Assembly (NCBI GenBank): GCA_048938895.1
Contig: JBHLLU010000009.1
Span: 35,800 to 99,799 of the forward strand
Reading direction: 5' to 3'
DNA length: 64,000 bases
DNA from: Promethearchaeota archaeon
Lineage (GTDB): Archaea; Asgardarchaeota; Lokiarchaeia; Sigyniarchaeales; SOKP01
A model generated the notes under the pieces. That model searched no databases and was not told the origin of the DNA. It saw only the letters and a list, made by a program, of their open reading frames with translations. Below are positions 1 to 52,988 of this stretch, piece after piece (within the stretch, counting starts at the first letter, position 1; every line of letters begins with the position of its first letter). A program made the position numbers and the translations under genes.

Positions 1-1772
1 ACCTTAATAGCTGCTCCTGTTATATGCGGATTTGAAACACAACTACCAACATTAACTAAACACCCTCTATCAAAATCACCAGGAAATCTGTCATATAACG
101 TCTTGCCTTCCTCATCTTTGACAAGACCAATATCCATTGCTCCGCAACCAGATACAACTACAATATAATTTCTTATTAAGAATTCCTCAGCCATTTTATA
201 TAGTTCTTGAATTTCATGAGCATAGTTACCACACCCTATAATCGCTACAATACCAGGGATTTCTCCCAGAACGATTGGGGCCCCTACATTGCGGATCTCT
301 GTGTCCATAATTGGACCACGCCCTGATCTACAATTATATTTCTCTGTTTTGATATATTCTCTCCCAGCATATTGGATAAGAGTCAATGGAGATACATTTT
401 TCATACAATCAGATTCACATCTACCACATCCTAAACAATCATGAAAAATACTTTCTAAAACGGAGAAATCCGCGTCTTTTGCTAATTTGACACCTTCCAC
501 AAGAGGTAGATCATTTGGGCAGTTTCTTTGGCAGTTTCCACATCCATTGCATCTCATAGCCATTTCTTGGCATCCTTTTTCATCTGGGACACCACTTTTA
601 CCTTTTCTAATTGGTTTTATCTTAATTGCCGTTTCTGCTGCTACTTCTCCAGCTTTAATAGGATCTAAAATTAAAACACCGTCCATTTTACCACTAACCA
701 AATCATCAACAATCTCCATCATGGGATCATCGGTCCTATCTGGAAAGCCACCCATTATTTTTTCATTGGTGGTAATGTATGGTGCTCCTACAGCTTTTGA
801 TTCTTCATAAGTTCTCAAATTGACACATTGTTCATCAACCATTACTACATCAGCTAAACCAGAACGGATATAATGTAGTTGTCTTGAATAAGAACCAATT
901 ATTTTTGCTCCATCATAGTAACGAGTAAGATCATGAGCTGTACAGCAAATTGCACCCACATCAACCTTATCTTCATAGCCCTTTTCTCGTATGTAATCAA
1001 CTAATTCAACTCCTGGAGCAACATTATGCCCAATCATCAAGACAGTTGCCTTATTTTCCGTATCCATTGTACCCATTCCTAATTCAACTATAGGTGCTTC
1101 TGGATCCCCCAATGGCATACCATAAGCAGCAATTTGTATAGCATCAGAAATTTCCATTCCGACTGAATCACATAAACCAGCAAGAAAGCTTTTTGCTTCA
1201 TAATCAAGATAACTAGATTCTTGACCTGTATGACCTGCGGCTAAAAGTTGTGTTAAAGTATAATGAACGTAATCCATAGCAGTTTCTAAATCCTCCAAAT
1301 TCTGAGGCTTCATCCCAACCACTAAGCGTGTATGAGGCATCTCAACGGCAATATTATTTCCGAAGTTAATCGGGACGTTCCCATATTTCTCTTTTAACCA
1401 ATGTAGAAGATGATCTCCATGAGCACTATGACACGCTGCACCTATACAACACGCAATTTCAACAATTCTTGCCTGCTGAGTTTCCATATTGATTCCGCAT
1501 GCTCCTGTTCTTCCTTTGGAAAGATTACATTTCCCATACGTACATAAACAGCACATATCACAAATGGGCATATAAAATGGTTTATAACGATCCATAAGCT
1601 TGAAAAACCAAGATCTAAGATCTCTTAAATGTGGAGAAGGATGAGGCCCCATAGGTTCCCATTCAGTCTCGTCACCATAAGAAATTTTTCCAGTTGTAAG
1701 TTCGAAGCCTTTAATAGAACCAAGAGGTCCTTTATACTCATCTATTTTTAGTTTTGCGCCTTGTTTTTCCAT
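1..1772 (-). CDS. cdhA: CO dehydrogenase/acetyl-CoA synthase complex alpha subunit (3' end runs off the window)
   Basis: Missing from the ORF track. My translation from ATG at 1772 gives MEKQGAKLKIDEYKGPLGSIKGFELTTGKIS...EPMGPHPSPHLRDLRSW...PFYMPICDMCCLCTYGKCNLSKGRTGACGI...GAACHSAHG, the archaeal CdhA signature, with later ferredoxin-type Cys clusters (CNGCGNCQRNCP, CLGCGRCESDC). Confidence 0.95.
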   Translation of the reverse strand, partial: MEKQGAKLKIDEYKGPLGSIKGFELTTGKISYGDETEWEPMGPHPSPHLRDLRSWFFKLMDRYKPFYMPICDMCCLCTYGKCNLSKGRTGACGINMETQQARIVEIACCIGAACHSAHGDHLLHWLKEKYGNVPINFGNNIAVEMPHTRLVVGMKPQNLEDLETAMDYVHYTLTQLLAAGHTGQESSYLDYEAKSFLAGLCDSVGMEISDAIQIAAYGMPLGDPEAPIVELGMGTMDTENKATVLMIGHNVAPGVELVDYIREKGYEDKVDVGAICCTAHDLTRYYDGAKIIGSYSRQLHYIRSGLADVVMVDEQCVNLRTYEESKAVGAPYITTNEKIMGGFPDRTDDPMMEIVDDLVSGKMDGVLILDPIKAGEVAAETAIKIKPIRKGKSGVPDEKGCQEMAMRCNGCGNCQRNCPNDLPLVEGVKLAKDADFSVLESIFHDCLGCGRCESDCMKNVSPLTLIQYAGREYIKTEKYNCRSGRGPIMDTEIRNVGAPIVLGEIPGIVAIIGCGNYAHEIQELYKMAEEFLIRNYIVVVSGCGAMDIGLVKDEEGKTLYDRFPGDFDRGCLVNVGSCVSNPHITGAAIK

Positions 1773-3692: not shown

Positions 3693-4286
3693 TCACAGAG
3701 TAGATAAAAATTCAGAAACGTTTTCTTCAGACTCTTCGTCAATTAAACTATCATCAAATTCTCCACCAATATAATTGAATCTATATGTACACTTTTCTGC
3801 ATCCAACAAGGCACAATTAATTTCTTCTCCGTCAACGTCTAGTTGCAATACATCAAAAAGGCCATTAAATATTCCTTGGTATAACAGGCATAGATTTTTT
3901 GCCATGATATTATCAGATTCCTCACAGGCAAGTGAACCCTCTACGTCTATTATAATGTGGTCTTTTTTGAACTTGCCTACCAATTGACCGTAACCCATAA
4001 GCTCTAATGCTTCAAGAGCTCCCAATAACACTTCTTTTCGAGTTGCTAAAGATTCACTTGACCAATCTTTACTATAGAAGAATTTTTCCATAAAATCTTT
4101 CCCAAGAGACTTCCCAACCCAAATCAGGATATCATCTGCATTTGTACCGGCAAATTCAGAAAATTCAATTATATCGAGAGGTCTTAACATAAGCAATTTC
4201 ATATCTTTCTTTTTATCACCAAAGAATAAGTGCCCCTCTTTATCATCAAACATAATATTTAACTCTTTTCGTAATCTTTTCGACAT
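3693..4286 (-). CDS. V4R domain protein (Bet3/TRAPP-related fold)
   Basis: MGYGQL, C-x4-G-x3-G (LCLLYQGIFNG) and E-x2-C-x6-C (EEINCALLDAEKCTYRF) are typical of V4R. Confidence 0.8.
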   Translation of the reverse strand: MSKRLRKELNIMFDDKEGHLFFGDKKKDMKLLMLRPLDIIEFSEFAGTNADDILIWVGKSLGKDFMEKFFYSKDWSSESLATRKEVLLGALEALELMGYGQLVGKFKKDHIIIDVEGSLACEESDNIMAKNLCLLYQGIFNGLFDVLQLDVDGEEINCALLDAEKCTYRFNYIGGEFDDSLIDEESEENVSEFLSTL

Positions 4287-4428
4287 TATTATTCCCTAAA
4301 TCGATTTTCTCAGAGGTTTGATAAATAGTTATTAAGATGTTATTTCTTATAATAGAAATTTAAATCCCTAGATATTTAAACTTAATGATTGGATCATTAG
4401 GTTTTAAAATTTACTAGAATATTAAGCT

Positions 4429-5448
4429 CTATTTTTGGATATGGTTATACTTTGACATTAAATCGAAGATCATTTCAACCGTTTTTTCAATGTTGTGATT
4501 TGTTTTTACCGAAGTAAACAGGAATTGCCAATTCCTGTTCTTAATTTTTTCGAATCCAAAATATGTAAATACGTCTTTTTTTAATGTTTCAAGATTTTTA
4601 TCTGATTGTCTAATTAAGTCACTTTTATTCCCTAATATCAATAGAGGAACTGCTTCCAACTCCTTATTATTTAGTATTCTCCAAAGTTCTCTTTTTGATT
4701 CTTCGAATCTTCTCTGATTTGCAATGTCTAGCATGTAAATAAGTATGTTAGAATCCTGTAAACCTTTCAACCACTTAGATCTGAAAATAGATTGTCCTGG
4801 AAGATCCCAAATAGCTAATAATCCTCCCTGATCTTCATGAATATATTCTATATTAAATTTTCTTGTAGGTGTAAAGTAGTTGTCATTGTACTCTCCAGTT
4901 TTTAATCGTCTTACAAAACTTGTTTTTCCAACATCATCAATTCCAAATAAAAAAACTTTAAAAAATGCTTCTTTCTCGTAGTAATATTCTAATTCTGGTG
5001 TTTTTTCTACAACTTCATCACCAAATCTTCGAAGATCAATAAACATCGAAATCAATAAGTTATCTATTTCCATTTCTTCTTCAAAGGAATATCCATTACC
5101 ATTATTCAGCAATTCACATAATAATTCTTCAAATATGTCCTTATAATCATATGGATTATCTTCTTCCTCAAAGATCAGTCCCACAATTATATCCTCGTCA
5201 ATACAAGAAGTATAGATATTGAAGTCATTAATATATTGAGCTATTGGTTTTTCAATTCTAAAATGGTTTGAAGATCTATATGTTGAGGGAGTGCTTTTGA
5301 TTTCTGCTTCTTTTTTTTGATCATGTCCTCTGATGATACTATTAATGAGGATTCTATTGTTGTTATTAATAATTTCTTTAGGGTAACAATAAATATTGAG
5401 ATCCTCTAAATCCTTCTTACCCTTGAACAAAAAGATATTATGTAACAA
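4429..5448 (-). CDS. Arf-like small GTPase with N-terminal longin-like domain
   Basis: G1 GIDDVGKT, G2 PTRKFNIE, G3 WDLPGQ, G4 NKSD, G5 TSVK. The N-terminal ~150 aa has a beta-beta-alpha-beta-beta-beta-alpha-alpha pattern (IIVGLIFEEEDNPYDY), which I infer to be longin-like. Confidence 0.85.
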   Translation of the reverse strand: MLHNIFLFKGKKDLEDLNIYCYPKEIINNNNRILINSIIRGHDQKKEAEIKSTPSTYRSSNHFRIEKPIAQYINDFNIYTSCIDEDIIVGLIFEEEDNPYDYKDIFEELLCELLNNGNGYSFEEEMEIDNLLISMFIDLRRFGDEVVEKTPELEYYYEKEAFFKVFLFGIDDVGKTSFVRRLKTGEYNDNYFTPTRKFNIEYIHEDQGGLLAIWDLPGQSIFRSKWLKGLQDSNILIYMLDIANQRRFEESKRELWRILNNKELEAVPLLILGNKSDLIRQSDKNLETLKKDVFTYFGFEKIKNRNWQFLFTSVKTNHNIEKTVEMIFDLMSKYNHIQK

Positions 5449-5617
5449 TTAAAATTTCCGAAATTCTTAATTCCTATAAGGTAAAAAATAAAAACTATTT
5501 AAAAAAAGTTTGGAATCTTGCAGACTTTGTATCTTTTTAAAGTTTTTGGTTTACCTTATAAAAGACAAATATCCTTATGATATTTATAAATGAACAATAA
5601 AATGTAAATTCAAAAAT

Positions 5618-7033
5618 TTAATCTTCTTCTTGCGCATCAGGTTCTTCTGGAGGTATCTCTTCTTTACTTTCCTCTGATTCTTCAATAGTTTCTTCGTTTT
5701 CTTCTATAGTTTGTTCTACTTCTACTTCAGGCTCAACTTTTGCACCTACAGGAGTTTCACAATGAGGACATTTACTCCACCCAGGTCTTAGTGCATAACC
5801 ACATTTCACACATTCCTTCAAGTCTTTATCTGGTTCCCATTCAGGAATATCCAAACCACCTTGTCTTTTTCGAGCTAATTCTTGTAAATCTTCTTCAGTC
5901 CAAACCTCCATTCCTTCAGGTAAACCCACACTCCGCTCAGATGCGAATTTATTTAATTCTTCCTCTGTCCATTCTGGCATACTTGGTTGAGATTCCATTC
6001 TTTTTTGAGCTTCCGAAGCTAGTTCTTCAGCAGTCCAAACTTTTAGCTCTTGACCTCCAGGAGTCCTAGATAGTGGGGGTGATACCTGCCCTGGGGTTTG
6101 AGGAGGTTGAGAGGGCACCCCAACAGAAGGAACATTACAAGATTCAGCAGAAAACTTTAATAACGCTTCAAAACATCTAGAATACTTGTTTGGGTCTTTT
6201 CCCTCATCGAGAACTAAAAGTAATGTAGTCTTTTCAGAACTATGAGGTACAGCAATACTGAAGACAGCGATATCTGAAGAAATTCTGTCTGATTCTAATC
6301 CTGAAGTTATTCTTTCCATTGAGTTCATGAGTTCATTATCTTTCATTAAAAAATCACATATTGGATCCCCATGTCTTTGATAAGCTTCATGGTATTTAGC
6401 AAGATGATTTTTTGTTATTGTTGAATCTAATGAGGTAATTAAGGCACTTACATAAGAATAGATTTGAGATTTGGGATCTTTTTGAGATTCATCAAGTTTA
6501 TAAGCCCCTAAATCGATTGGTCCCATAATTGGTGCAAATAATGGTTTCTCTCCTTTTGTTTTCCCAAAGATTATTGAACGTGAGAGAAGGCACTTTACTT
6601 CACCATAATACGCAATTGAGTTGTCTAAAAGCTCAAGTTTCTTATCGAAAACTATACGAGGGACAGTTCGAAATATCACATCAACCCAGGGCATCTCTTT
6701 TACAGGGATAATTGCAATACATGTTTTTTCAATGAGTTCACGTAAAAGTTTGACAAAACCCTTCAATTCTTTTTTTATATCTGCATAATCTTCATTTACT
6801 AGTTCTTCATTAGCTCGTTCTTCGAGCTCTTTAAATTTCTCTTCATTAACTTTTAGATTTCCTCCGAAAGATTTGACATCACCTACGATATTATCTTTCA
6901 ATATTGCAATTGCATTTTCAATCGCTTTTTTCTGGAAATCTGTAAGATCGTGGTCTTCACTGGCTACTATGTAATCAGCAGGATCAAATTCTAACTTATT
7001 TTGGAACACTTGAAAAAGTTTCTGTTCTGACAC
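5618..7033 (-). CDS. Hypothetical protein with tandem WTxE(E/D)L repeats, zinc ribbon and acidic tail
   Basis: 471-aa ORF with Pro-rich linker, three W-T-x-E-[ED]-L units, CVKC...CPHC and a Glu-rich C-terminus. Confidence 0.7.
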   Translation of the reverse strand: MSEQKLFQVFQNKLEFDPADYIVASEDHDLTDFQKKAIENAIAILKDNIVGDVKSFGGNLKVNEEKFKELEERANEELVNEDYADIKKELKGFVKLLRELIEKTCIAIIPVKEMPWVDVIFRTVPRIVFDKKLELLDNSIAYYGEVKCLLSRSIIFGKTKGEKPLFAPIMGPIDLGAYKLDESQKDPKSQIYSYVSALITSLDSTITKNHLAKYHEAYQRHGDPICDFLMKDNELMNSMERITSGLESDRISSDIAVFSIAVPHSSEKTTLLLVLDEGKDPNKYSRCFEALLKFSAESCNVPSVGVPSQPPQTPGQVSPPLSRTPGGQELKVWTAEELASEAQKRMESQPSMPEWTEEELNKFASERSVGLPEGMEVWTEEDLQELARKRQGGLDIPEWEPDKDLKECVKCGYALRPGWSKCPHCETPVGAKVEPEVEVEQTIEENEETIEESEESKEEIPPEEPDAQEED

Positions 7034-43406: not shown

Positions 43407-43736
43407 TTACATCTCCGAACTTATAATTTGTTCTATTGCTTCAAAAATTTTATTAAAAAATATGTCTCGGTTCTCAATATCGGATTGAAATATGTTTGGT
43501 ATTAAATAAATAAATGGAGTTTTATTGCTCATCTTGAATTCTAAAATAGTATCAATAATTTCTGTTGGCAAATCCAAAAAAATAATTATCATTCCTATTG
43601 AAGGTTCTTTAGTCAATATATCAAAGTTCTTAAGAAAATCCTCTTTATTTTCAATAATTGTACCATCTATTCCTAGAAGTCCAAATAGTAAGACAATATC
43701 TTCCTCACCTAATATATGTATTTTTTGATCAACCAT
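43407..43736 (-). CDS. atpF: A/V-type ATP synthase subunit F
   Basis: KIHILGEEDIVLLFGLLGI...IGMIII...P...IP; operon position. Confidence 0.9.
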   Translation of the reverse strand: MVDQKIHILGEEDIVLLFGLLGIDGTIIENKEDFLKNFDILTKEPSIGMIIIFLDLPTEIIDTILEFKMSNKTPFIYLIPNIFQSDIENRDIFFNKIFEAIEQIISSEM

Positions 43737-44047
43737 TAAAAATCAAATCCAATATCTTTTATTAATAGTTTAAATAAAGCTTTTTTAGAGCTTTGATATT
43801 GATTATCCATTTTATTCTTGAAATCTTCTATTTTTTTTGCAATAAAGGAATTTTCGTCGCTTAATATTTTTAGTTGAGAATTTAAAGCGGATTCAACTAT
43901 TTTATTGTTATTTTCTATTCTGTTTTCCATATACTTTTCTTGTTCAATTCTTAGATCTTCCAATTCAGTTAGATTTAAACTCTTAGCTTTATCAATTAAA
44001 TCTTTATAAATATTCTCGATTTCCTTAACCCATTCAAAAATTTCCAT
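43736..44047 (-). CDS. A/V-type ATP synthase peripheral stalk subunit H/G (probable)
   Basis: 103-aa helical charged protein (VKEIE...LIDKAK) within the operon. Confidence 0.65.
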   Translation of the reverse strand: MEIFEWVKEIENIYKDLIDKAKSLNLTELEDLRIEQEKYMENRIENNNKIVESALNSQLKILSDENSFIAKKIEDFKNKMDNQYQSSKKALFKLLIKDIGFDF

Positions 44048-44066
44048 GTTTTTCTCAATATCCTTT

Positions 44067-45125
44067 TCAATTAATTAACTTCAAATTTTCATATTTCTTG
44101 TTTATAATTTCAATTACTTTAGGAATTATCTCAAATCGAATCTCATTCTCTTTTTTGATTATAAGTTCTAATATTCTGAAAATTGTGATTAAATCAATAT
44201 CGTCCATCTGTATTTTTAATTTTCTAAAATAGTATTTTAAATATATCTTTTCAATTGAGTGGACTAAATGTTCTTGGTCAATGACTACGTTTTTAAAAAA
44301 TCTTTTTATTTCTCTTATGTTTTTGATATAATTTTCTATTAAAGACACTAGTTTGTCAGGATCTTCAATAGTTAATAAATAATCAATTTTTCCCTTATCC
44401 AAAAATAAGTAATAATCTACTATAAACTGGGTTAATAATTCCTTTTCAATTTTATTTTTTAAGCCTCTATAGATAGTATTTATATTGTAGATTTCTGTTT
44501 TGTATTTAACAAAATCAGTTATTATTTTTTGTTCTTTTGTATTCAAATTCTTTAATTGACTTATCATTTTTTCATAATAAAATTTATCTAAAAAAGCTTC
44601 TAAAACAAAAATTTCATTATAATTTTTAAAGTAAGTAAGTCCTTCACTAATAGGGATATTATAACTAGTTTTTTTAAATATTAATTGAAATTCTTCCAAA
44701 GAACTAATTTTTAGCAAATCTTCAATAAATTCTATGTTATCTAAATACTCTTCAACTTGGAAATTTACTTTCTGTCTTTTACTTTTGAGATCCATTCCTA
44801 AGATTGACGCAATTATAATTTGTTTAATATTCATTATTTCGAATTTTTGAAGATAATTTTTTAAAAATACTCTCATGTTTTGTGGTGAATAAAGTATGAT
44901 TTTCCCAACCAGTTTGATATAATTAGAATATAAGGCTAATTCGATGTCTTCGATAGTTTTAGCCTTAACTTTTAAATCAGGATAAAATGGTGTTATTAAA
45001 TCTAAGACTTTATTGATATTTTTAGCATTATAAAAATCCTGTAAAGATGTATCATCCATAATTAGGCTTTTTAAAAAAGCTAATTTAATATATGTATATG
45101 CGTAGGAAGGAACTATTGTACTCAA
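44067..45125 (-). CDS. atpC: A/V-type ATP synthase subunit C
   Basis: YAY..., EIMNIKQII, LEAFLDKFYY, EIYNINTIYRG, KENEIR. Start likely TTG 45125 behind GGTGA, which removes the overlap with K. Confidence 0.88.
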   Translation of the reverse strand: MSTIVPSYAYTYIKLAFLKSLIMDDTSLQDFYNAKNINKVLDLITPFYPDLKVKAKTIEDIELALYSNYIKLVGKIILYSPQNMRVFLKNYLQKFEIMNIKQIIIASILGMDLKSKRQKVNFQVEEYLDNIEFIEDLLKISSLEEFQLIFKKTSYNIPISEGLTYFKNYNEIFVLEAFLDKFYYEKMISQLKNLNTKEQKIITDFVKYKTEIYNINTIYRGLKNKIEKELLTQFIVDYYLFLDKGKIDYLLTIEDPDKLVSLIENYIKNIREIKRFFKNVVIDQEHLVHSIEKIYLKYYFRKLKIQMDDIDLITIFRILELIIKKENEIRFEIIPKVIEIINKKYENLKLIN

Positions 45126-45181
45126 AAAATAATCACCAAATTGTTGAAAATATGAAAAATTTATACATTTAAAGACAGAAT

Positions 45182-45541
45182 TCATGCATATCCAGGAATC
45201 AATGTCCATAAAAGTATAGCAATTATTAGCCCGTATATTGCTAATGCTTCACATAAAGCAACAACTAAAAAGGCTTTAAAAAATGTTTCTTCTCGTTCCG
45301 AAAGTGAAGAGATTGCTGCAACACCAACAGTTTTTAAAGCGATTGCACTCCCTAATACTGCAGCTGCGACTGAGATTGATGCCGCTATCCCTAGTAATCC
45401 TGCAGTTGTTGTGTTATAGTAATCATAAGTACCTTGAGCAGATGCAAATGTTATTAAGCCATCGACTGAAAACAACACGATAAATATCAATACAATTTGG
45501 AATATTCCTAATAATAGATAAAATTTTTTTTTTCCATTCAA
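45182..45541 (-). CDS. atpK: A/V-type ATP synthase subunit K (c), single hairpin with N-terminal leader
   Basis: AAVLGSAIA...GVAAI...LCEALAIYGLIIA; hydrophobic N-terminal extension ending ASAQ. Confidence 0.92.
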   Translation of the reverse strand: MNGKKKFYLLLGIFQIVLIFIVLFSVDGLITFASAQGTYDYYNTTTAGLLGIAASISVAAAVLGSAIALKTVGVAAISSLSEREETFFKAFLVVALCEALAIYGLIIAILLWTLIPGYA

Positions 45542-45864
45542 TTGAACTCATCTTAGCTTGTTTTAAATAATTTAAATTATAAAAATAAAATTACCCGTAT
45601 AAACTTATCTATTAGGAATAGAAAGGACGATTGGTTGTCCTTCAAAAGGTATTTGCAAATTAATTGATGACTTTAAAAGAGATATTATTCTATTGAATTT
45701 TATCATTCTAATTTGCTGAGGTTCTAGTAGTGAGGTTAATCAAGATAATAAATTAATTGTAATCGTCTAAAGTTTTCTAAATTAGGTAAATTTTAATTTA
45801 CAATAATAAAGTATTAATTTTTTTCTTTTTTCTTTCAAAGTATATTAAAATAAGTTTTTCAAAC

Positions 45865-47343
45865 ATGATTTTTCAAGGATTATTTAATATTTTAGAATTG
45901 TACTTGAACAACATTGATTCTTTTTATAATAGAATAGATGACTATTTTAAAGCAAAGATCTTAGATCATTTTGGTAATAGGGTACTAGAGAAAGAAAATT
46001 TAGATATGTTTTATAGCGAATTCTGTTTATTCCTTAAAAATCATTTTATTGAATTAGGCTTTAAACCAACGGAAATTGAGAATAAATTTTCAGATCCATA
46101 CTTGGAATTAAAGGATCAAGAAAAAGATTTTATATCATCGGTTGTAGAACTTTATGAAAAAAAAACAGCTCCTTTAATGTATGAGTTTTTTTTAGAAAAT
46201 ATAATTACTTATCTTGCGGAAGTAGGAACTGCTCCTCTTATGCTAAAATTTAAAGATGAGGGGTTTCTTTCGATTGAATTTATAATAGAATTAAGAAATT
46301 TAAAAAGTCTTATTGAAAGAGTTCCCGAAAAAATGGAAAACCTAAGAAAATATATTAACATTCAAGATAAAGTTATTGATAAATTAATAAAAAGTAAGGA
46401 AGAAATTGAAAGGTTGGAAGATTTAGAAGAACCCCAATATAAACTTCAGCTAATATATTTAATTTATAGAATTATTGATTTCTTCCATCTCCAAAAGTTA
46501 TTCGATTTTTCTCATATAAAATCATATTTAGAAAAGAACATTGACGAATGGTTAATAGATGTTCCATTAGTTTCTTTAAAGAACCCTGATATTTATTTTT
46601 GTGGGATTTATCTAGCAAAATCTTTGAATGTAAAAGTAGATAAAAGTAAAATTACAGATTTTTTGTTATCATTATTGGATGAAGTTCAAGAAAGATATGA
46701 GTCTCCTATTCTCGAAGCTACGGATGGTGCTTACTATTTTTTTAAATCAACGATATTAATGAACTTGTGGTTAAAGAATGAACAAATAAGTAATTTAATT
46801 AGATTGGAACCAAAATTTTTTGAATCAAGTTATCTACAAAATCTTGAAACGTCGCAATTGGTAGTAATTTTAAAAATTTTCAGACAATTAGGTATTGGAG
46901 ATATGGAAAATGAAACTAAAACGATTTTAGAAGAACTTGAAACACGAATCAATCCTCAAGGAATACGGCAGTATCGTGATGGATTTATTACTTCTGAAGC
47001 TATTTATTATGTTCTTTTTATAAATTTTATGCGAAACACTCTCGAAAAGCTAACAGATTATGAATTATTGAATAATATTGTTCAAAGAATTTACAGGAAT
47101 TTAGAACTACTTGATATTTCTGTAGATACAAATTATGATTTGATTAGTGAATTATTTTACTCAATTGAAAGTTTAAAATTATTAAATTGCATAGAAACCA
47201 AAGAAATGATAATTCATCTCGCTAAATATTTGTTCCCTGATGAAATTATCACAAAAATAGTGACTAGTGATGTAATTGCTCGAGGAAGTGCTCGTTTTCG
47301 ACACTTTAAAGTTAATAGAATTACAGGAGAAACAGTATATTAA
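45865..47343 (+). CDS. Hypothetical alpha-helical protein
   Basis: 492-aa ORF with no motif I recognise with confidence. Confidence 0.7.
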   Translation: MIFQGLFNILELYLNNIDSFYNRIDDYFKAKILDHFGNRVLEKENLDMFYSEFCLFLKNHFIELGFKPTEIENKFSDPYLELKDQEKDFISSVVELYEKKTAPLMYEFFLENIITYLAEVGTAPLMLKFKDEGFLSIEFIIELRNLKSLIERVPEKMENLRKYINIQDKVIDKLIKSKEEIERLEDLEEPQYKLQLIYLIYRIIDFFHLQKLFDFSHIKSYLEKNIDEWLIDVPLVSLKNPDIYFCGIYLAKSLNVKVDKSKITDFLLSLLDEVQERYESPILEATDGAYYFFKSTILMNLWLKNEQISNLIRLEPKFFESSYLQNLETSQLVVILKIFRQLGIGDMENETKTILEELETRINPQGIRQYRDGFITSEAIYYVLFINFMRNTLEKLTDYELLNNIVQRIYRNLELLDISVDTNYDLISELFYSIESLKLLNCIETKEMIIHLAKYLFPDEIITKIVTSDVIARGSARFRHFKVNRITGETVY

Positions 47344-47447
47344 TTCCTTTTGTTAAACATTACTCCACTTAAAGAAAGGATGTATTCATTATATACTTTA
47401 AAAAATTAGGATAAAGTAATAAATAAAATCTCTTATTAAGTTTAATT

Positions 47448-48119
47448 ATGTCTTATGTCTACATGAAATCTTTGGAGAAAAAAGCTGAAAGATATGATAA
47501 AGGGATTAAGACCTTAACTTTAGGTAAGTATCCAAAAATTAAACATTATATTGCAAATAATTACCTAAATGATGGAGAGAATCTTTTAGATATTGGAATG
47601 GGCACTGGTACATTTGCCATCCTAGCAGCTAATAAAGGTTTAAATGTTACAGGTATAGATTATTCTGAAAAAATGTTAATTATAGCACAAAAAAAAATTA
47701 AAGAAAAAAAATTATCTGAACAGATCAATATAAAGAAAATGCCAATTATCAATTTAGATAAAGAATTTGAAAGTAATTCGTTTGATAAGATAACTGCTAT
47801 GTTAGTGTTTAGTGAATTATATGAAAAGGAACAAGATTTTACTTTAGATCAAATTTTTCGAATTTTAAAGGATACTGGTGAATTTATTTTAGTAGATGAA
47901 GTAAAACCTAAGGTATTTTGGAAAAAAGTCCTTTATTTCATTATAAGGATTCCTCTTGTTATTCTAACCTTCTTAAGATCTCAATTGACTACGAAAGCTC
48001 TAAAAAATTTTGAAGAAAGTTTAAAAAACCATCGATTTGAAATTGTTGATGAGAAATATTACTTATTAGATACTTTGAAATTATTCAGGATAAAAAAAAG
48101 AGGTGATAAGAAGGATTGA
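47448..48119 (+). CDS. Class I SAM-dependent methyltransferase (corrinoid-protein-associated, CpaM-like)
   Basis: LLDIGMGTG, GIDYSEKML, FDKI; its stop overlaps the start of the HgcAB-like gene. Confidence 0.85.
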   Translation: MSYVYMKSLEKKAERYDKGIKTLTLGKYPKIKHYIANNYLNDGENLLDIGMGTGTFAILAANKGLNVTGIDYSEKMLIIAQKKIKEKKLSEQINIKKMPIINLDKEFESNSFDKITAMLVFSELYEKEQDFTLDQIFRILKDTGEFILVDEVKPKVFWKKVLYFIIRIPLVILTFLRSQLTTKALKNFEESLKNHRFEIVDEKYYLLDTLKLFRIKKRGDKKD

Positions 48120-49207
48120 GTATGAAAGAAGCTTTAAAGTTAATTGGGGGATATTTCTTTAGATGGATTGGGTTTTCTAAAGAACCAAATCTAATAAAAG
48201 TTGGAAATCCAAATAAACAAAGCCCGGTGTTTCTAACATGCAATTTTAATATAACTGTGAAAAGAGTGATAAAAGCGCTCAAGGGAATTGATTGCTATTT
48301 ATTAATTTCTCCTTCAAAGGGGATAAATGTATGGTGTGGAGCATGTGGTGATGATTTTAATACGGATTCAGTAATTTCAATAATAAAAACCAGCGGAATA
48401 AATGAACTTGTGAATCATCGGAACTTAATTGTACCACAATTAAGCGCCCCTGGAATTGATCCATTGATTATTAAGAAAGAGTTAGGTTGGGAAGTCATAT
48501 TTGGGCCTGTTTACGCTAAAGATATTAAAAGCTATATTAAACATGATTTTAAAAAGACAGAACAAATGCGCGAAGTAAAATTTACAATTTCAAAGCGAAT
48601 AGAAATAGCTAATATGTATTTCTTTACGTTATTCCTTGTATTTACCTTGGGATTTTGTATATATGCGATAATCATAACTAAATTCGAAATATTACTCTTT
48701 TTTGATAATCTGGTAATCTTAGCTGTAATTATTTATGGTGCTCTTATTATTTTACCAAGTATTAAAACTAAAACAGGGAGACCTAAAGCATTACTATTTG
48801 AAGCTATCTTAATTGGTTTAATTATTATCTTCAATATTCTCATTATTCCTAACCTATTTTATTTAATCTGGAATATAATTGTTTCTTTGGTTGTCTCACT
48901 TATCTTAATAGAAGATTTCAATGGATTAACTCCTATTTATAAGAGTGAACTAGGGGAGAAAACTTGGAGAAAAGGTGAAAAAGAAATGAGATTTATGGGA
49001 ATGAAAATAAAATTACAACCTTATGGGAATATTAAAATTGATCGTGATAGATGTATAGGATGTAAAGTTTGCATTGAGGTATGCCCCAGAAATCTCTATA
49101 AATTTAATGAGGATGATAAAAAAGTGGATTTATATAATCCTGAGAATTGTATAAATTGTAATGCTTGCGTCAAACGATGTCTAGCTCATTGTCTTGAAAT
49201 AAAATAA
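48116..49207 (+). CDS. HgcA-like corrinoid protein fused to TM region and 2x[4Fe-4S] ferredoxin (HgcAB-like fusion)
   Basis: VGNPNKQSPVFLTCNF, cap-helix-like GINVWCGACG, IVPQLSAPG, FGPVYAKDI; about four TM helices; CIGCKVCIEVCP and CINCNACVKRC. Confidence 0.88.
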   Translation: MSMKEALKLIGGYFFRWIGFSKEPNLIKVGNPNKQSPVFLTCNFNITVKRVIKALKGIDCYLLISPSKGINVWCGACGDDFNTDSVISIIKTSGINELVNHRNLIVPQLSAPGIDPLIIKKELGWEVIFGPVYAKDIKSYIKHDFKKTEQMREVKFTISKRIEIANMYFFTLFLVFTLGFCIYAIIITKFEILLFFDNLVILAVIIYGALIILPSIKTKTGRPKALLFEAILIGLIIIFNILIIPNLFYLIWNIIVSLVVSLILIEDFNGLTPIYKSELGEKTWRKGEKEMRFMGMKIKLQPYGNIKIDRDRCIGCKVCIEVCPRNLYKFNEDDKKVDLYNPENCINCNACVKRCLAHCLEIK

Positions 49208-49259
49208 TGTCTAAATAGCTGATCATATGTTCTTTTATAACTTCTTGTTCATAGACAAT

Positions 49260-49580
49260 TTATTCGATTTGGACACTTAATTTCTCGATCTCCTCTGCTT
49301 TTTCCTTCTTAAGTGCAGTTAATCTTTGTTTCAGAGATTTTTTTTTGTTTCGAGTCAATATTTTAATTTCTTTTTTAAATAATTTCAAGATAGTATTTAA
49401 TTCTGCGATTCTATCCTTTAGTTCTCTTTTTTCTTTCTTAATAGCCCCCAAATCACGGTAGTCTTGTTCATATTTAGAATAGATTTTATTAAGAACAGAA
49501 TCAAAATCTATTGAAATTTCTTTTTGAACTTCAGCTTCTTTTTCCTTATATTTTTTTTCAATTTCATCTAAAGTTGTCAT
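49260..49580 (-). CDS. Small coiled-coil hypothetical protein
   Basis: 106 aa, K/E-rich. Confidence 0.6.
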   Translation of the reverse strand: MTTLDEIEKKYKEKEAEVQKEISIDFDSVLNKIYSKYEQDYRDLGAIKKEKRELKDRIAELNTILKLFKKEIKILTRNKKKSLKQRLTALKKEKAEEIEKLSVQIE

Positions 49581-49717
49581 ATAATATAATTTTCTGATAA
49601 AAACAATAAAAACATATCGTCTAGAAAATTCAAATTTTATTTTGTGCTGAAAAAGTAAATTTTAAGAATTAAATTTTCCAAAGCTCTTCTTTCCTTGTAT
49701 ATATTCAAAAAAAAGTA

Positions 49718-50359
49718 TTATTGATAGAGAAGAATTCTTATATTATCTGCCAGATCATGAATTCTATCCGCTAGTTGCTCGAGTAAAACAATACTATCCC
49801 TGATTCTGAGGAGTTTCCTCACATCTAAATTCTCATCTGAATATAAAAATTCAAGAAACTGGCGATATATTGTATCGATTTCATTTTCCAGTTCATGAAT
49901 TGTAGTGGTATTTTCAAATACAATTTGAGTTTTCTGATCCCGAAGGCTTTTAATTGTTGATTTTAACACATCTGCCATATTCATAATTTTATTGATTAAT
50001 TTATCATATCTTTTTTTGATTTCTTCATCCGTTCCACCTTCGAGTACGATGTTTGACAACATATCCACAAACTCCAATGGATAATTAATAGTATTATCCA
50101 TACGGAGAATTAAAGCCACATAATCCCCCAATCCCTGTGCACCTGCTTCAGCATAATTTTGGATCAATCGAATTTTAATACCATCCGCATCTTCCTCACG
50201 TAATTGCATTTTACCTTTTTTCTTTTCTAAAAAATCTTTATTTGCCTCGTAATCTTTTGCCCAGGTTGAATAATAAACACCCATATCAGAAATAACGGAA
50301 TAAATAATCCTAGAATGTTCAATCAACATTGAAATGATTTCTTCTTTAATCTTATTCAT
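49718..50359 (-). CDS. DUF47 / PhoU-like phosphate transport regulator family
   Basis: EEDADGIK...IHELENEIDTIYR...LEQLADRIHDLAD. Confidence 0.85.
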   Translation of the reverse strand: MNKIKEEIISMLIEHSRIIYSVISDMGVYYSTWAKDYEANKDFLEKKKGKMQLREEDADGIKIRLIQNYAEAGAQGLGDYVALILRMDNTINYPLEFVDMLSNIVLEGGTDEEIKKRYDKLINKIMNMADVLKSTIKSLRDQKTQIVFENTTTIHELENEIDTIYRQFLEFLYSDENLDVRKLLRIRDSIVLLEQLADRIHDLADNIRILLYQ

Positions 50360-50566: not shown

Positions 50567-51352
50567 ATGGAATATAAAGACTTAATTATTGAGAAACGTA
50601 ATGATCATATCGCAATTGTTACCCTAAATCGTCCAGAACAGTTAAATACCCTTACATTAAATTTAATGAGAGAAATTGAACGATTGACAGAAGATTTTCA
50701 AAAAGATACGGAGACTCGAGTTGTAATTTTCACAGGTGCAGGAAAACACTTTTGTGGTGGAAGAGATTTGAGAGAACAAGGAAACCCTACGACTGTACTT
50801 GAACAGCAACGGGCAATCCAGAATGGTCCAAGAATGGTTCGCAAATTATTTATGATGGATCAAATAACCATTGCAGCAATTAATGGAGGTGCCTTCGGGG
50901 GAGGATGTTGTATTACTTCAGCTCTTGATTTTCGCATTGGAGATGAAAGATGTATGTCGGGGTTCCCAGAAAGTCGTTTAGGGATGAGTTTAAGCTGGAC
51001 AATACTCCCCATAATTGTACATCTAATTGGTCCTACATTTGCAAAAGAGATGACAATATTAGGGAAAAATAATGATGCCCAAACATTATTAAAATGGGGA
51101 TACTTAAGTGAAGTAGTACCAAGAGAGAAATTACTAGATCGAGCAATCGAAATTGCTAAATATTATGCTGTAATGCCCCCTATTCCTGCCCAAATGATTA
51201 AGAAAACAATTAACCATATTGTCAGTGCGCTAGATCAAGCGATAATGCATATGGATATGGATCAATTGATGTTAACTCTTCAGACAGATGATCTGAAAGA
51301 AGGAGTTGCTGCCTTCTTCGCAAAACGCGATGGAAAATTCAAGGGTAACTAA
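50567..51352 (+). CDS. Enoyl-CoA hydratase/isomerase family protein
   Basis: TLNRPEQLN, FCGGRDL, IAAINGGAFGGG, FPESRLG, EGVAAFFAKR...FKG. Confidence 0.92.
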   Translation: MEYKDLIIEKRNDHIAIVTLNRPEQLNTLTLNLMREIERLTEDFQKDTETRVVIFTGAGKHFCGGRDLREQGNPTTVLEQQRAIQNGPRMVRKLFMMDQITIAAINGGAFGGGCCITSALDFRIGDERCMSGFPESRLGMSLSWTILPIIVHLIGPTFAKEMTILGKNNDAQTLLKWGYLSEVVPREKLLDRAIEIAKYYAVMPPIPAQMIKKTINHIVSALDQAIMHMDMDQLMLTLQTDDLKEGVAAFFAKRDGKFKGN

Positions 51353-51570: not shown

Positions 51571-52248
51571 TTGGGAAATTTTCGTGAAAAATTAAAGAAA
51601 TGGAAACAATACTCAAAAATGGCAGATTTGGGTATAATAGCAAGACGAAAATTCTTTAATAATGCTTTCGACGGTGCTCTTACCTGTGCTGGAATTGTAA
51701 GTGGAATTTTTATTATTTATTTAAACAATCCAGATCAATTCACACCTCAAAACGTTATAGTTACCGGATTTGCTACAGCATTGGCTATTGGTATAAGTGG
51801 GTTATGGGGTGCTTTTCTATCTGAAGAGGCTGAGCGAAGAAAAAAAATTATAGATATGAATAAAGATATGGCTATAACTGATGATGAGGAGGAGGAAGAT
51901 AATAGTCTTTCTAGAGAAGGAAAAGTTAAAAATGAAAACAATAAAAAGAATAAAAATAAAAAAAAGACACTTTTACAAAAAGCAGAGGATTTTGCTACAA
52001 TTGTTGCTTCCCTTGTTGATGGGGGTGCACCAGTATTAGGATCCTCATTACCATTGATTCCATTTTTCTTTGGTATTGAATTAAGTATACTTCATTTCAT
52101 AGCTTCCTACCTAATTCTAGCAGCTCTGCTTGTGTATTTAGGTAATTTTTTAGGAAAAATTTCAGGAGGGGGAAGGATTAGGTATGCGTTGCACTTAGTT
52201 GCAGCCGGAGTTATTACTCTCCTAGTCTCAATACTACTTGGGATCTAA
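51571..52248 (+). CDS. VIT1/CCC1-like (TIGR00267-type) membrane transporter
   Basis: RRKFFNNAFDGAL, ISGLWGAFLSEEAE, LPLIPFF. Confidence 0.8.
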   Translation: MGNFREKLKKWKQYSKMADLGIIARRKFFNNAFDGALTCAGIVSGIFIIYLNNPDQFTPQNVIVTGFATALAIGISGLWGAFLSEEAERRKKIIDMNKDMAITDDEEEEDNSLSREGKVKNENNKKNKNKKKTLLQKAEDFATIVASLVDGGAPVLGSSLPLIPFFFGIELSILHFIASYLILAALLVYLGNFLGKISGGGRIRYALHLVAAGVITLLVSILLGI

Positions 52249-52283
52249 AAAGCCAATAATAAATTAGAAACGATTTAAATAGA

Positions 52284-52988
52284 ATGTTCGAAAAATTCAA
52301 AACCTATTCAAAAATAACTAACCTCTGGGCAATCGCAAGACGCTATTTTGTAAATAATTTTTATGATGGAATGCTAACTGTTTTAGGTATATTACTGGGA
52401 TTCTTTACTTTGATTTTAAAAGAAGGAGAAGTCTCAGTTGCAAGTCATCTTGTAATTCTGACAGGAATGGGAACTTCTATATCAATGTTCATTTCAGGGA
52501 TATCTGGATCTTATCTTTCAGAAAGAGCAGAGCAGAAGAAATTAAAAGAAGAATTAAAGAGAGCTATGGTAATTACTGAAGATTCTGAAGAAGAATTGGA
52601 TGAGAGTGTCATGGAAATTGAAAAAGCTATGTTAATACATATCAATAACCAAATTCAACCGAATCAGAGGAAAGAGGTGAAAAACAAAAGAAAAATAAAA
52701 AAAAAAACACTTCAAGAGAAAGCTGAAAGTTTTGCGATTCTTATTGTATCAATTATAAATGGCTTATCACCATTTTTAGGAGGGCTTGTTCCGATAATCC
52801 CTTTTTTCTATGCACCATTAGCAAACCTCTATATTTTTGTAATATCATTTTCTATCATTCTTATCTGTATAATTTTTTTGGGTATCTTTCTTGGGGTTGT
52901 ATCTAAGGAATCTATACTTAAAAATGTAATTCAAATGGTTTTCGCATTTACATTAACACTGATTATTTCTATATTCCTATTAAGTTAA
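52284..52988 (+). CDS. VIT1/CCC1-like membrane transporter (tandem paralog)
   Basis: RRYFVNNFYDGML, SGISGSYLSERAE, VPIIPFF. Confidence 0.8.
   Translation: MFEKFKTYSKITNLWAIARRYFVNNFYDGMLTVLGILLGFFTLILKEGEVSVASHLVILTGMGTSISMFISGISGSYLSERAEQKKLKEELKRAMVITEDSEEELDESVMEIEKAMLIHINNQIQPNQRKEVKNKRKIKKKTLQEKAESFAILIVSIINGLSPFLGGLVPIIPFFYAPLANLYIFVISFSIILICIIFLGIFLGVVSKESILKNVIQMVFAFTLTLIISIFLLS

What the first reader, a model, noticed from the sequence alone, without database searches (positions are those of the whole stretch)
47448..49207. SAM methyltransferase translationally coupled to a fused HgcAB-like corrinoid/ferredoxin protein with a variant cap helix
Seen: the methyltransferase stop overlaps the start of a protein with a corrinoid domain, TM helices and two CxxCxxCxxxC motifs. 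The cap helix reads NVWCGACG and there is no multi-Cys C-terminal tail. Established: mercury-methylating HgcA has N(V/I)WCA(A/G)GK and a separate HgcB with C-terminal cysteines; organisms with fused hgcAB that were tested have not been shown to methylate Hg. Inference: a membrane-bound SAM-to-cobalamin methyl relay acting on an unknown acceptor (metal/metalloid or membrane substrate). The additional Cys could be a substrate ligand. This bears on the origin of Hg methylation, and the genome also has Wood-Ljungdahl cdhA.
Basis: partly seen in the sequence, partly recalled or inferred. Interest (0 to 1): 0.7.

Follow-up and report, generated by a model that had tools for sequence, protein, structure and literature searches.

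The report
CpaM methyltransferase with HgcAB-like corrinoid protein
This is a two-gene unit in an Asgard archaeon, a SAM methyltransferase next to a membrane-bound vitamin-B12 and iron-sulfur protein related to the mercury-methylating enzyme; the pairing is already catalogued and widespread, but what it methylates is still unknown.

Summary
Window 47448..48119 (+) encodes a 223-aa class I SAM methyltransferase. Window 48116..49207 (+) encodes a 363-aa protein with a corrinoid domain, four membrane helices and two CxxCxxCxxxC motifs.

Both genes pass curated NCBIfam models. The first is CpaM, "corrinoid protein-associated methyltransferase" (250.7 bits, cut-off 180). The second is "HgcAB-like fusion protein" (372.5 bits, cut-off 285). 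It fails the true HgcA model (172.5 bits, cut-off 275).

The pair is strongly conserved:
- In 80 related loci from other genomes, 65 are HgcAB-like. Of these, 47 have CpaM directly upstream, 11 have it fused in the same reading frame, 3 have it further upstream and 4 have none (2 of those lack upstream DNA).
- None of the 15 true-hgcA loci has CpaM.
- In 121 sampled Asgard genomes, all 22 with HgcAB-like have CpaM adjacent.

The "variant" cap helix NVWCGACG is the norm in this subclade (97 of 120 close homologs).

Best reading: CpaM loads a methyl group from SAM onto the cobalt, the ferredoxin domain supplies electrons, and the acceptor is unknown. This is inferred, not shown. The locus is a new member of a known, uncharacterised kind.

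The parts
47448..48119 (+). cpaM: class I SAM-dependent methyltransferase, 223 aa
   Evidence: NF043040 CpaM scores 250.7 bits against a cut-off of 180. Pfam Methyltransf_31/11/25 match. The model has pLDDT 87.0 and a Coq5/UbiE-like fold, best match 4obw_B at E 2.4e-13.
47586..47609 (+). SAM-binding motif I (LDIGMGTG, residues 47-54)
   Evidence: G50, G52, T53 and G54 are invariant in 20 CpaM sequences. So are D71, S122 and E123 (A3).
47910..47987 (+). Family-specific hydrophobic helix insert of CpaM (residues 155-180)
   Evidence: Hydropathy segment 155-180. The model has a helix at 157-178 with lower confidence. P169 is invariant; R167 and T182 are nearly invariant. Its role is unknown.
48100..48124 (+). 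Gene junction: GAGGTGA, then TTG start overlapping the TGA stop (TTGA); alternative ATG at 48122
   Evidence: Sequence read. L023 has an ATGA overlap at the same position. P0001 is 361 aa, which fits the ATG start.
48116..49207 (+). HgcAB-like fusion protein, 363 aa
   Evidence: NF043039 scores 372.5 bits against a cut-off of 285. HgcA NF040863 scores 172.5 against 275. In the tree it sits inside a Promethearchaeota/Odin clade (100/98) on the HgcAB-like side.
48176..48571 (+). Corrinoid-binding domain (about residues 21-152)
   Evidence: PF03599 matches residues 21-139. Foldseek matches the CFeSP large subunit (4c1n_G, 2ycl_A, 4djd_C, 2h9a_A) at E about 1e-7, rmsd 2.6-2.9 over 125-129 columns, and the HgcA model 9a0b_A at E 2e-10.
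48326..48349 (+). Cap-helix motif NVWCGACG (N71-G78); C74 is the presumed cobalt ligand and C77 is the extra cysteine
   Evidence: G69, N71, W73 and C74 are invariant in 45 diverse fused proteins. NVWCGACG occurs in 97 of 120 close homologs.
48587..48910 (+). Four predicted transmembrane helices (residues 158-265)
   Evidence: The model has helices at 158-186, 192-215, 221-242 and 247-265. Hydropathy agrees.
49022..49204 (+). C-terminal 2x[4Fe-4S] ferredoxin domain (about residues 303-363) with extra C359
   Evidence: Fer4 families match 306-361. It aligns to true HgcB but stops before their GVGC and CC tail.

Best explanation
This is a self-contained two-gene module, CpaM plus an HgcAB-like fusion protein, in an Asgard (Promethearchaeota) genome.

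Shown here:
- Both proteins belong to these two curated families.
- The two families are adjacent or fused almost wherever the second one occurs.
- The second protein keeps a CFeSP/HgcA-type corrinoid domain with the invariant cap-helix cysteine, four membrane helices and two [4Fe-4S] motifs.

Inferred mechanism:
1. The corrinoid is held by the N-terminal domain, with C74 as cobalt ligand.
2. The ferredoxin domain lies on the same side of the membrane, because the number of helices is even. It reduces Co(II) to Co(I).
3. CpaM binds SAM and methylates Co(I).
4. Methyl-Co(III) passes the methyl group to an acceptor at the membrane surface. That acceptor is not identified.

The module is a sister system to the mercury methylase HgcAB, not that enzyme itself.
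For: Family membership: for both cut-offs.

Adjacency across 80 loci from other genomes, classified by NCBIfam:
- 65 loci are HgcAB-like; 60 of them score above the cut-off.
- 47 have a separate CpaM directly upstream on the same strand, with an aligned gap of at most 118 nt.
- 11 have CpaM in the same open frame.
- 3 have CpaM 704-1784 nt upstream.
- 4 have none.
- All 50 separate candidates pass the CpaM cut-off at 232.6-302.1 bits. All 11 fused ones score 258-281 bits.
- None of the 15 true-HgcA loci has CpaM.

Independent protein-level fusions: 8 CpaM+HgcAB-like triple fusions pass both cut-offs.

Genome level:
- In 121 sampled Asgard genomes, 22 have HgcAB-like over the cut-off. All 22 have CpaM next to it on the same contig.
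- In an 81-genome sample of the family of L089 (Methanosarcinaceae per the tree label), 2 genomes have HgcAB-like. Both have CpaM adjacent. Three genomes checked with below-cut-off, HgcA-type partial matches (positions 12-282) have none.

CpaM features: it has intact SAM motifs and no cysteine. This argues against CpaM itself binding a soft metal(loid).

Precedent: SAM was shown to be the methyl donor of purified HgcAB through methylcob(III)alamin (Zheng et al. 2024, PMC11588087; abstract and passages read).
Against: - No biochemistry exists for either family in anything I could read.
- No class I SAM methyltransferase that methylates a corrinoid protein is known to me (recalled, not searched).
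- True HgcAB uses SAM without a separate methyltransferase, so a helper is not obviously needed.
- The cap helix region is the least confident part of the corrinoid domain in the model (block pLDDT 66). No cofactor was modelled.
- The complex predictor was not available, so the CpaM-corrinoid interface is untested.
- L079 (4 kb of upstream DNA) and L045 (966 nt) have HgcAB-like without CpaM nearby.
Confidence: 0.6

Rival explanations
1. CpaM is the terminal methyltransferase for a small molecule or lipid, as its UbiE/Coq5-like fold suggests. The HgcAB-like protein is a redox or reductive partner, for example a corrinoid reductase or dehalogenase. In this reading the methyl group never passes through cobalt.
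For: The nearest folds and sequence relatives are small-molecule methyltransferases such as Coq5, phosphoethanolamine N-methyltransferases and MitM. A 2026 preprint reports CCl4 dechlorination by heterologous HgcAB (10.64898/2026.04.26.720869; abstract only). CpaM has a conserved hydrophobic helix that could sit on the membrane.
Against: Fusion order is always CpaM, then corrinoid domain with a short linker. This fits direct hand-over between the two. No third conserved gene supplies a substrate pathway. CpaM occurs only beside HgcA-type proteins wherever this could be assessed.
Confidence: 0.17
2. It is a working mercury methylase, a fused HgcAB variant, with CpaM delivering the methyl group from SAM.
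For: It has the same corrinoid domain, the invariant cap-helix cysteine, a membrane domain and a dicluster ferredoxin. SAM is the donor for HgcAB.
Against: - The HgcA model scores 172.5 bits against a cut-off of 275.
- The cap helix lacks the GK ending that all 15 true HgcA proteins here have. None of the 65 HgcAB-like proteins ends in K.
- It has no HgcB-type GVGC cysteine or CC tail.
- Two cultured organisms with fused hgcAB did not make methylmercury (PMC5893877; PMC10087281).
Confidence: 0.1
3. The corrinoid protein takes a methyl group from a methylated substrate, so the methyl flows in the demethylase direction. CpaM then acts on another step or regenerates a cofactor.
For: Corrinoid proteins in O-demethylase and methylamine systems work this way (established knowledge, recalled).
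Against: Those systems use TIM-barrel methyltransferases, not class I SAM enzymes (recalled). CpaM keeps every SAM-binding motif. Making SAM from SAH and methyl-cobalt is energetically unfavourable (inference).
Confidence: 0.05
4. The adjacency is chance or an annotation artefact with no functional link.
For: None found.
Against: 61 of 65 loci across many archaeal and bacterial phyla have CpaM upstream or fused. All 22 Asgard genomes with HgcAB-like have CpaM adjacent. Triple fusions arise in at least two tree positions.
Confidence: 0.01

Closest known systems
HgcAB-like fusion protein (NCBIfam NF043039), called 'fused HgcAB' in the mercury literature (Podar 2015, Gilmour 2018, Capo 2022, Lin 2023 preprint)
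   Same: Full-length match at 372.5 bits. Same architecture: corrinoid domain, membrane helices and 2x[4Fe-4S]. It lies in the Asgard clade that Lin et al. describe in their fused subtree (10.1101/2022.11.21.517362, passages read).
   Different: Nothing essential; it is a member. Its subclade carries two extra cysteines, C77 and C359, which co-occur in 109 of 117 close homologs with a cap motif. Most of the wider family lacks them.
CpaM, corrinoid protein-associated methyltransferase (NCBIfam NF043040, 'hypothetical equivalog')
   Same: 250.7 bits over positions 1-215 of 216. It lies directly upstream of a corrinoid protein, as the family name implies.
   Different: Nothing; it is a member. 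No function has been tested in any text I could search.
HgcA/HgcB mercury methylase (NF040863 and NF040864)
   Same: Homologous corrinoid domain with the cap-helix cysteine, a membrane domain and a dicluster ferredoxin partner. SAM is plausibly the methyl source in both.
   Different: - Below cut-off: 172.5 against 275 for HgcA, and 45.8 against 99 for HgcB.
- Cap helix NVWCGACG instead of NVWCAAGK.
- The ferredoxin is fused and lacks the GVGC cysteine and CC tail.
- It has four predicted membrane helices.
- A dedicated SAM methyltransferase is attached, which none of the 15 true hgcA loci has.
Corrinoid iron-sulfur protein large subunit (AcsC/CdhE) of the Wood-Ljungdahl pathway
   Same: The B12-binding domain matches: rmsd 2.6-2.9 over 125-129 columns at 26-32% identity, and profile E 2e-18 to 9e-17.
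   Different: Only that domain is shared. NF003195 scores 81.7 against a cut-off of 306. The rest of CFeSP is missing. CFeSP receives its methyl group from methyl-tetrahydrofolate through MeTr, not from SAM (established knowledge).
Reductive SAM-dependent remethylation of cobalamin in methionine synthase (MetH activation domain with flavodoxin)
   Same: Works alike in principle: an electron donor plus SAM turns an inactive cobalt state into methyl-Co(III) (recalled knowledge).
   Different: The folds are unrelated, and in MetH this is a repair step, not the main methyl supply. This is an analogy only and was not tested here.

Membership tests
HgcAB-like fusion protein (NF043039) | Score at or above the curated cut-off over the full length | tested here: met
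   372.5 bits against 285; residues 10-360 match profile positions 4-349 of 350.
HgcAB-like fusion protein (NF043039) | One polypeptide with a corrinoid domain carrying the cap-helix cysteine, membrane helices and two [4Fe-4S] motifs | tested here: met
   
HgcAB-like fusion protein (NF043039) | Branches with fused proteins, apart from true HgcA | tested here: met
   The tree has 80 rows (L023 and L053 dropped as too short). True HgcA form one group (100/96). The window protein is on the other side of a 100/94 split.
CpaM (NF043040) | Score at or above the curated cut-off | tested here: met
   250.7 bits against 180.
CpaM (NF043040) | Class I SAM methyltransferase fold with SAM-binding motifs | tested here: met
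   The model has pLDDT 87. Its top Foldseek matches are SAM methyltransferases. The GxGxG motif and D71 are invariant.
CpaM (NF043040) | Encoded beside a corrinoid protein | tested here: met
   Stop and start overlap or lie 2 nt apart.
CpaM (NF043040) | Methyl transfer from SAM to the corrinoid | not testable with these tools
   Needs biochemistry.
HgcA mercury methylation corrinoid protein (NF040863) | Score at or above the curated cut-off | tested here: not met
   172.5 bits against 275. The 15 true HgcA proteins score 351-496.
HgcA mercury methylation corrinoid protein (NF040863) | Cap helix N(V/I)WC(A/S)(A/G/S)GK (Capo 2022) | tested here: not met
   NVWCGACG has G at position 5, C at position 7 and G at position 8.
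HgcA mercury methylation corrinoid protein (NF040863) | Separate HgcB with a conserved post-cluster cysteine and C-terminal cysteines | tested here: not met
   The ferredoxin is fused and ends before those residues.
HgcA mercury methylation corrinoid protein (NF040863) | Mercury methylation activity | not testable with these tools
   Needs an assay.
CFeSP large subunit (NF003195) | Full-length match including the parts outside the B12 domain | tested here: not met
   81.7 bits against 306. Only profile positions 325-447 of 450 match.
Arsenite methyltransferase ArsM | Score at cut-off and cysteines that bind As(III) | tested here: not met
   The best ArsM-type models score 33-42 bits against cut-offs of 240-575. 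CpaM has no cysteine. The cysteine requirement itself is recalled.

The most novel reading that the evidence does not exclude
CpaM plus HgcAB-like is a complete, portable, membrane-bound methylating machine. It takes methyl from SAM through a Cys-ligated cobalt and puts it on a soft metal(loid) or another electrophile that is not mercury.

The mercury methylase would be a derived branch of the same machine that lost the separate methyltransferase.

In the Asgard subclade, the two extra cysteines (C77 on the cap helix and C359 behind the second cluster) would form part of the acceptor site.
Probability: 0.15. Interest if true: 0.75.

Novelty: new member of a known kind. Interest (0 to 1): 0.4.

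Why it matters
The natural job of the HgcA family is an open question, because mercury methylation gives the cell no known benefit. The fused branch is widespread and its function is untested.

Its near-obligate link to a SAM methyltransferase fits the 2024 finding that SAM, not methyl-tetrahydrofolate, feeds HgcAB. It also gives a simple two-gene (or single fused-gene) construct for testing acceptors.

For this particular locus the value is modest. It is one more member of families that NCBI already names.

Tried and rejected
- **RNA evidence:** no RNA holder was listed among 12 runs.
- **Riboswitch or other RNA element** upstream of cpaM:
  - Nothing credible in window 45400-49700. The one hit was a nematode snoRNA model at E 0.63.
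  - Nothing upstream of cpaM in 16 bacterial loci, chosen out of the 65.
- **Conserved third gene:** clustering of flanking ORFs of the 80 loci and the window found none. The next cluster after the pair occurs in 11 loci.
- **Literature:**
  - 'CpaM' with 'corrinoid' gave 0 papers.
  - 'corrinoid protein-associated methyltransferase' and 'HgcAB-like fusion' gave 0 occurrences.
  - 'HgcAB-like' gave 8 papers. I did not search them for the methyltransferase neighbour.
  - None of the passages on fused hgcAB that I read in the papers opened mentions a methyltransferase neighbour.
  - Haft & Gwadz 2023 (J Bacteriol, PMC9879109), cited by Zheng 2024 and possibly describing these families, is not held. 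I could not check it. The NCBIfam curators' comments are also not visible.
- **First wide alignment (A1)** was too diverse for the locus scan. A closer one (A2) was used.
- **N-terminal extensions** of about 140-190 aa on some database HgcAB-like proteins (P0290, P0297, P0313, P0323, P0330, P0355) have no Pfam or NCBIfam match. In GC-rich loci the stop-to-stop frame simply runs upstream over cpaM. I therefore take them as probable start-calling artefacts, not proven.
- **ArsM reading of CpaM:** rejected.
- **C359 as the equivalent of the conserved HgcB cysteine:** rejected by alignment.
Full report
**What is there**

Two same-strand ORFs lie at the stated coordinates. The first is 47448..48119, 223 aa. 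The second is 48116..49207, 363 aa from a TTG start.

The junction reads gga-TTGA-gt-ATG. The TTG start overlaps the TGA stop by 4 nt. An ATG at 48122 lies 2 nt after the stop. The database copy of the protein is 361 aa (P0001), which fits the ATG. The nearest relative, L023, has an ATGA overlap at exactly this position, which favours the overlapping start.

In 20 relatives inspected, the stretch between the cpaM stop and the start of the HgcAB-like coding sequence is short (starts were not called individually). The aligned gap is at most 118 nt in 47 loci.

A GAGGTGA lies at 48100-48106. Upstream there is a 104-nt AT-rich spacer after a 492-aa ORF with no Pfam match. Downstream there is a convergent gene. 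The unit is therefore a two-gene operon candidate.

**Identity**

The first protein passes the curated model NF043040, "corrinoid protein-associated methyltransferase CpaM" (250.7 bits, cut-off 180). The second passes NF043039, "HgcAB-like fusion protein" (372.5 bits, cut-off 285). The second fails the mercury-methylation models: HgcA scores 172.5 against 275, and HgcB scores 45.8 against 99. It also fails the CFeSP gamma-subunit model at 81.7 against 306.

Pfam sees CdhD (PF03599) at residues 21-139 and dicluster Fer4 families at 306-361.

The AlphaFold model, built from a 16-sequence alignment, has pLDDT 83.1 and pTM 0.77. It shows an alpha/beta corrinoid domain, four long helices (158-186, 192-215, 221-242, 247-265) and a small ferredoxin fold. 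An even helix count puts both soluble domains on the same side of the membrane (inference).

Foldseek's best matches are as follows:
- the published HgcA model 9a0b_A, E 2e-10;
- the CFeSP large subunit 4c1n_G, 2ycl_A, 4djd_C and 2h9a_A, rmsd 2.6-2.9 over 125-129 columns;
- dicluster ferredoxins.

CpaM folds as a class I SAM methyltransferase (pLDDT 87.0). Its best matches are Coq5 and other small-molecule methyltransferases. It keeps the GxGxG motif and D71. It has a family-specific hydrophobic helix at about 155-180, with P169 invariant and R167 and T182 nearly invariant. It contains no cysteine.

No member of either family has a solved structure by sequence search.

**Organism**

Close homologs of both proteins are named by NCBI as coming from Promethearchaeota, Thor-, Odin-, Heimdall- and Hermodarchaeota MAGs. 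Many already carry the names "HgcAB-like fusion protein" and "CpaM".

The window is G000:C83:35800-99799 of a 4.65-Mb assembly with 98.7% completeness and 7.5% contamination.

**Is the pair conserved?**

A scan of one genome per prokaryote species found 588 relatives, of which the best 80 loci were kept. By NCBIfam, 65 of the 80 are HgcAB-like. Sixty of these score above the cut-off. The five below are two truncated copies and three CpaM-HgcA-like fusions without a ferredoxin. The other 15 loci are true HgcA.

| Situation in the 65 HgcAB-like loci | Loci | Source |
|---|---|---|
| Separate CpaM directly upstream, same strand | 47 | |
| CpaM in the same open frame | 11 | |
| CpaM 704, 1245 or 1784 nt upstream | 3 | |
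| No CpaM found | 4 | |

Further details:
- The 11 same-frame cases are 8 triple fusions and 3 without a ferredoxin.
- Of the 4 loci with no CpaM, L017 and L069 have under 150 nt of upstream DNA. L045 has 966 nt and L079 has 4 kb.
- All 50 separate candidates pass the CpaM cut-off at 232.6-302.1 bits. The 11 fused ones score 258-281 bits.
- None of the 15 true-hgcA loci has a CpaM hit.

The hosts span many archaeal and bacterial phyla.

Eight further triple fusions among database representatives pass both cut-offs.

At genome level, I sampled 121 Asgard genomes. Twenty-two have HgcAB-like over the cut-off, and all 22 have CpaM beside it on the same contig, 7 of them in one frame. Three more genomes have CpaM over the cut-off. 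Two of these sit beside a partial or ferredoxin-less HgcA-like gene, and one sits on a truncated hit.

In an 81-genome sample of the family of L089 (Methanosarcinaceae per the tree label), 2 genomes have HgcAB-like over the cut-off. Both have CpaM adjacent. Three genomes with below-cut-off, HgcA-type partial matches (positions 12-282) were checked and have none.

Nothing else in the neighbourhood is conserved. No riboswitch was found.

**Cap helix and cysteines**

All 15 true HgcA proteins read NVWCAAGK. None of the 65 HgcAB-like proteins ends in K.

G69, N71, W73 and C74 are invariant across 45 diverse fused proteins.

NVWCGACG is found in 97 of 120 close homologs, and NVWCASCG in 12. The "variant" is therefore the subclade's norm.

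The second cysteine (C77) and an extra cysteine four residues after the last cluster ligand (C359) occur together in 109 of the 117 close homologs that have a cap motif. Among 150 representatives clustered at 50% identity, 12 lack the cap motif; in the other 138 both cysteines are uncommon.

The protein ends before the GVGC cysteine and terminal CC that all 13 aligned true HgcB proteins carry. I had no coordinates, so I could not measure whether C77 and C359 come close to each other.

**Phylogeny**

The tree used the soluble corrinoid domain and has 80 rows. L023 and L053 were dropped as too short.
- True HgcA form one group (100/96).
- The window protein sits in a Promethearchaeota/Odin clade (100/98) inside the HgcAB-like side (64 rows, 100/94).
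- Triple fusions need at least two origins.

The root is at the midpoint only, so no direction of evolution is claimed.

**How it most likely works**

Shown: family membership, architecture, and the near-obligate genetic coupling, including fusions.

Inferred: CpaM uses SAM to methylate Co(I) of the Cys-ligated corrinoid. The fused ferredoxin supplies low-potential electrons. Methyl-Co(III) then methylates an unknown acceptor near the membrane.

The inference leans on the fusion order (always CpaM, then the corrinoid domain), on the absence of cysteines in CpaM, and on the demonstration that SAM methylates the cobalamin of purified HgcAB (Zheng et al. 2024, PMC11588087; abstract and passages).

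Rivals are given with odds in their own section. The strongest is that CpaM methylates a small molecule and the corrinoid protein plays a redox role.

**Compared with what is known**

Fused hgcAB is well known in the mercury field:
- Two cultured carriers did not methylate mercury (Gilmour 2018, PMC5893877; Capo 2022, PMC10087281).
- An Asgard clade of fused genes has been reported (Lin et al. preprint, 10.1101/2022.11.21.517362).

The CpaM link exists as an NCBIfam name. I found no mention of it in the passages I read, and term searches found nothing. One possibly relevant paper, Haft & Gwadz 2023, is not held.

**Verdict**

Noticed in passing
Outside the window, same contig: G000:C83 about 3815-5757 (-). 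In locus L010: 460..2139 (-) and 92..397 (-): There is a second, different system in the same genome. It is a 559-aa fusion of a CpaM-like methyltransferase with an HgcA-like corrinoid and membrane protein. All three NCBIfam models fall below cut-off: CpaM 136.7, HgcAB-like 175.2, HgcA 170.4. Its cap helix reads NVWCAARG. A separate 101-aa HgcB-like ferredoxin follows, and it does carry a GC(G)C and a terminal CC. The family has 523 proteins at E <= 1e-20. All 120 listed have NVWCAARG. NCBI names them only 'methyltransferase domain-containing protein'. Similar below-cut-off hits occur in about 17 of 121 sampled Asgard genomes. In the tree it sits on a very long branch next to true HgcA, so its placement is unsure. 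This looks less catalogued than the finding itself.
   Followed up: partly
L059, L068, L074, L079, L080 (C-termini of their HgcAB-like genes): This bacterial subclade of HgcAB-like proteins (100/99 in the tree) has a cysteine-rich tail...G.CSCPTC.... L079 is also the one locus with 4 kb of upstream DNA and no CpaM.
   Followed up: no
Many loci, e.g. L032, L035, L038-L040, L044, L046 (C-termini): Another large subclade has a conserved C-terminal extension after the ferredoxin, PFDALYF..P.GE.I.PE.IRKFKLNLMGKR. It lacks one cysteine of the first cluster motif, so only one full CxxCxxCxxxC is found.
   Followed up: no
P0386 (database representative, 477 aa): This is a true HgcA (446.7 bits) fused at its N-terminus to an ArsN2-like arsenic-resistance N-acetyltransferase domain (63.9 bits, below the cut-off of 125).
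   Followed up: no
G034:C139:5677-6843 (another Asgard genome): A CpaM over the cut-off is followed by an HgcAB-like match of only positions 3-138, with an in-frame TGA. It could be a broken gene, a contig effect or a recoded codon. I did not look further.
   Followed up: no
window 1..1736 (-): The 3' part of cdhA (CODH/ACS alpha subunit) lies here. The whole gene is at G000:C83:35265-37535 and scores 1052.8 bits against a cut-off of 781.3.
   Followed up: partly
window 43736..45541 (-) and 51571..52988 (+): There are A/V-type ATP synthase subunit genes (AC39 85.6 bits, subunit c 52.9 bits) upstream on the other strand, and two tandem VIT-family membrane protein genes downstream. A DUF47/PhoU-like gene lies at 49718..50359 (-) and an enoyl-CoA hydratase gene at 50567..51352 (+). 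None is conserved next to the pair in other genomes.
   Followed up: partly
window 45865..47343 (+): A 492-aa ORF directly upstream of cpaM has no Pfam match. Among the 80 loci it has a counterpart only in the nearest relative, L023.
   Followed up: no
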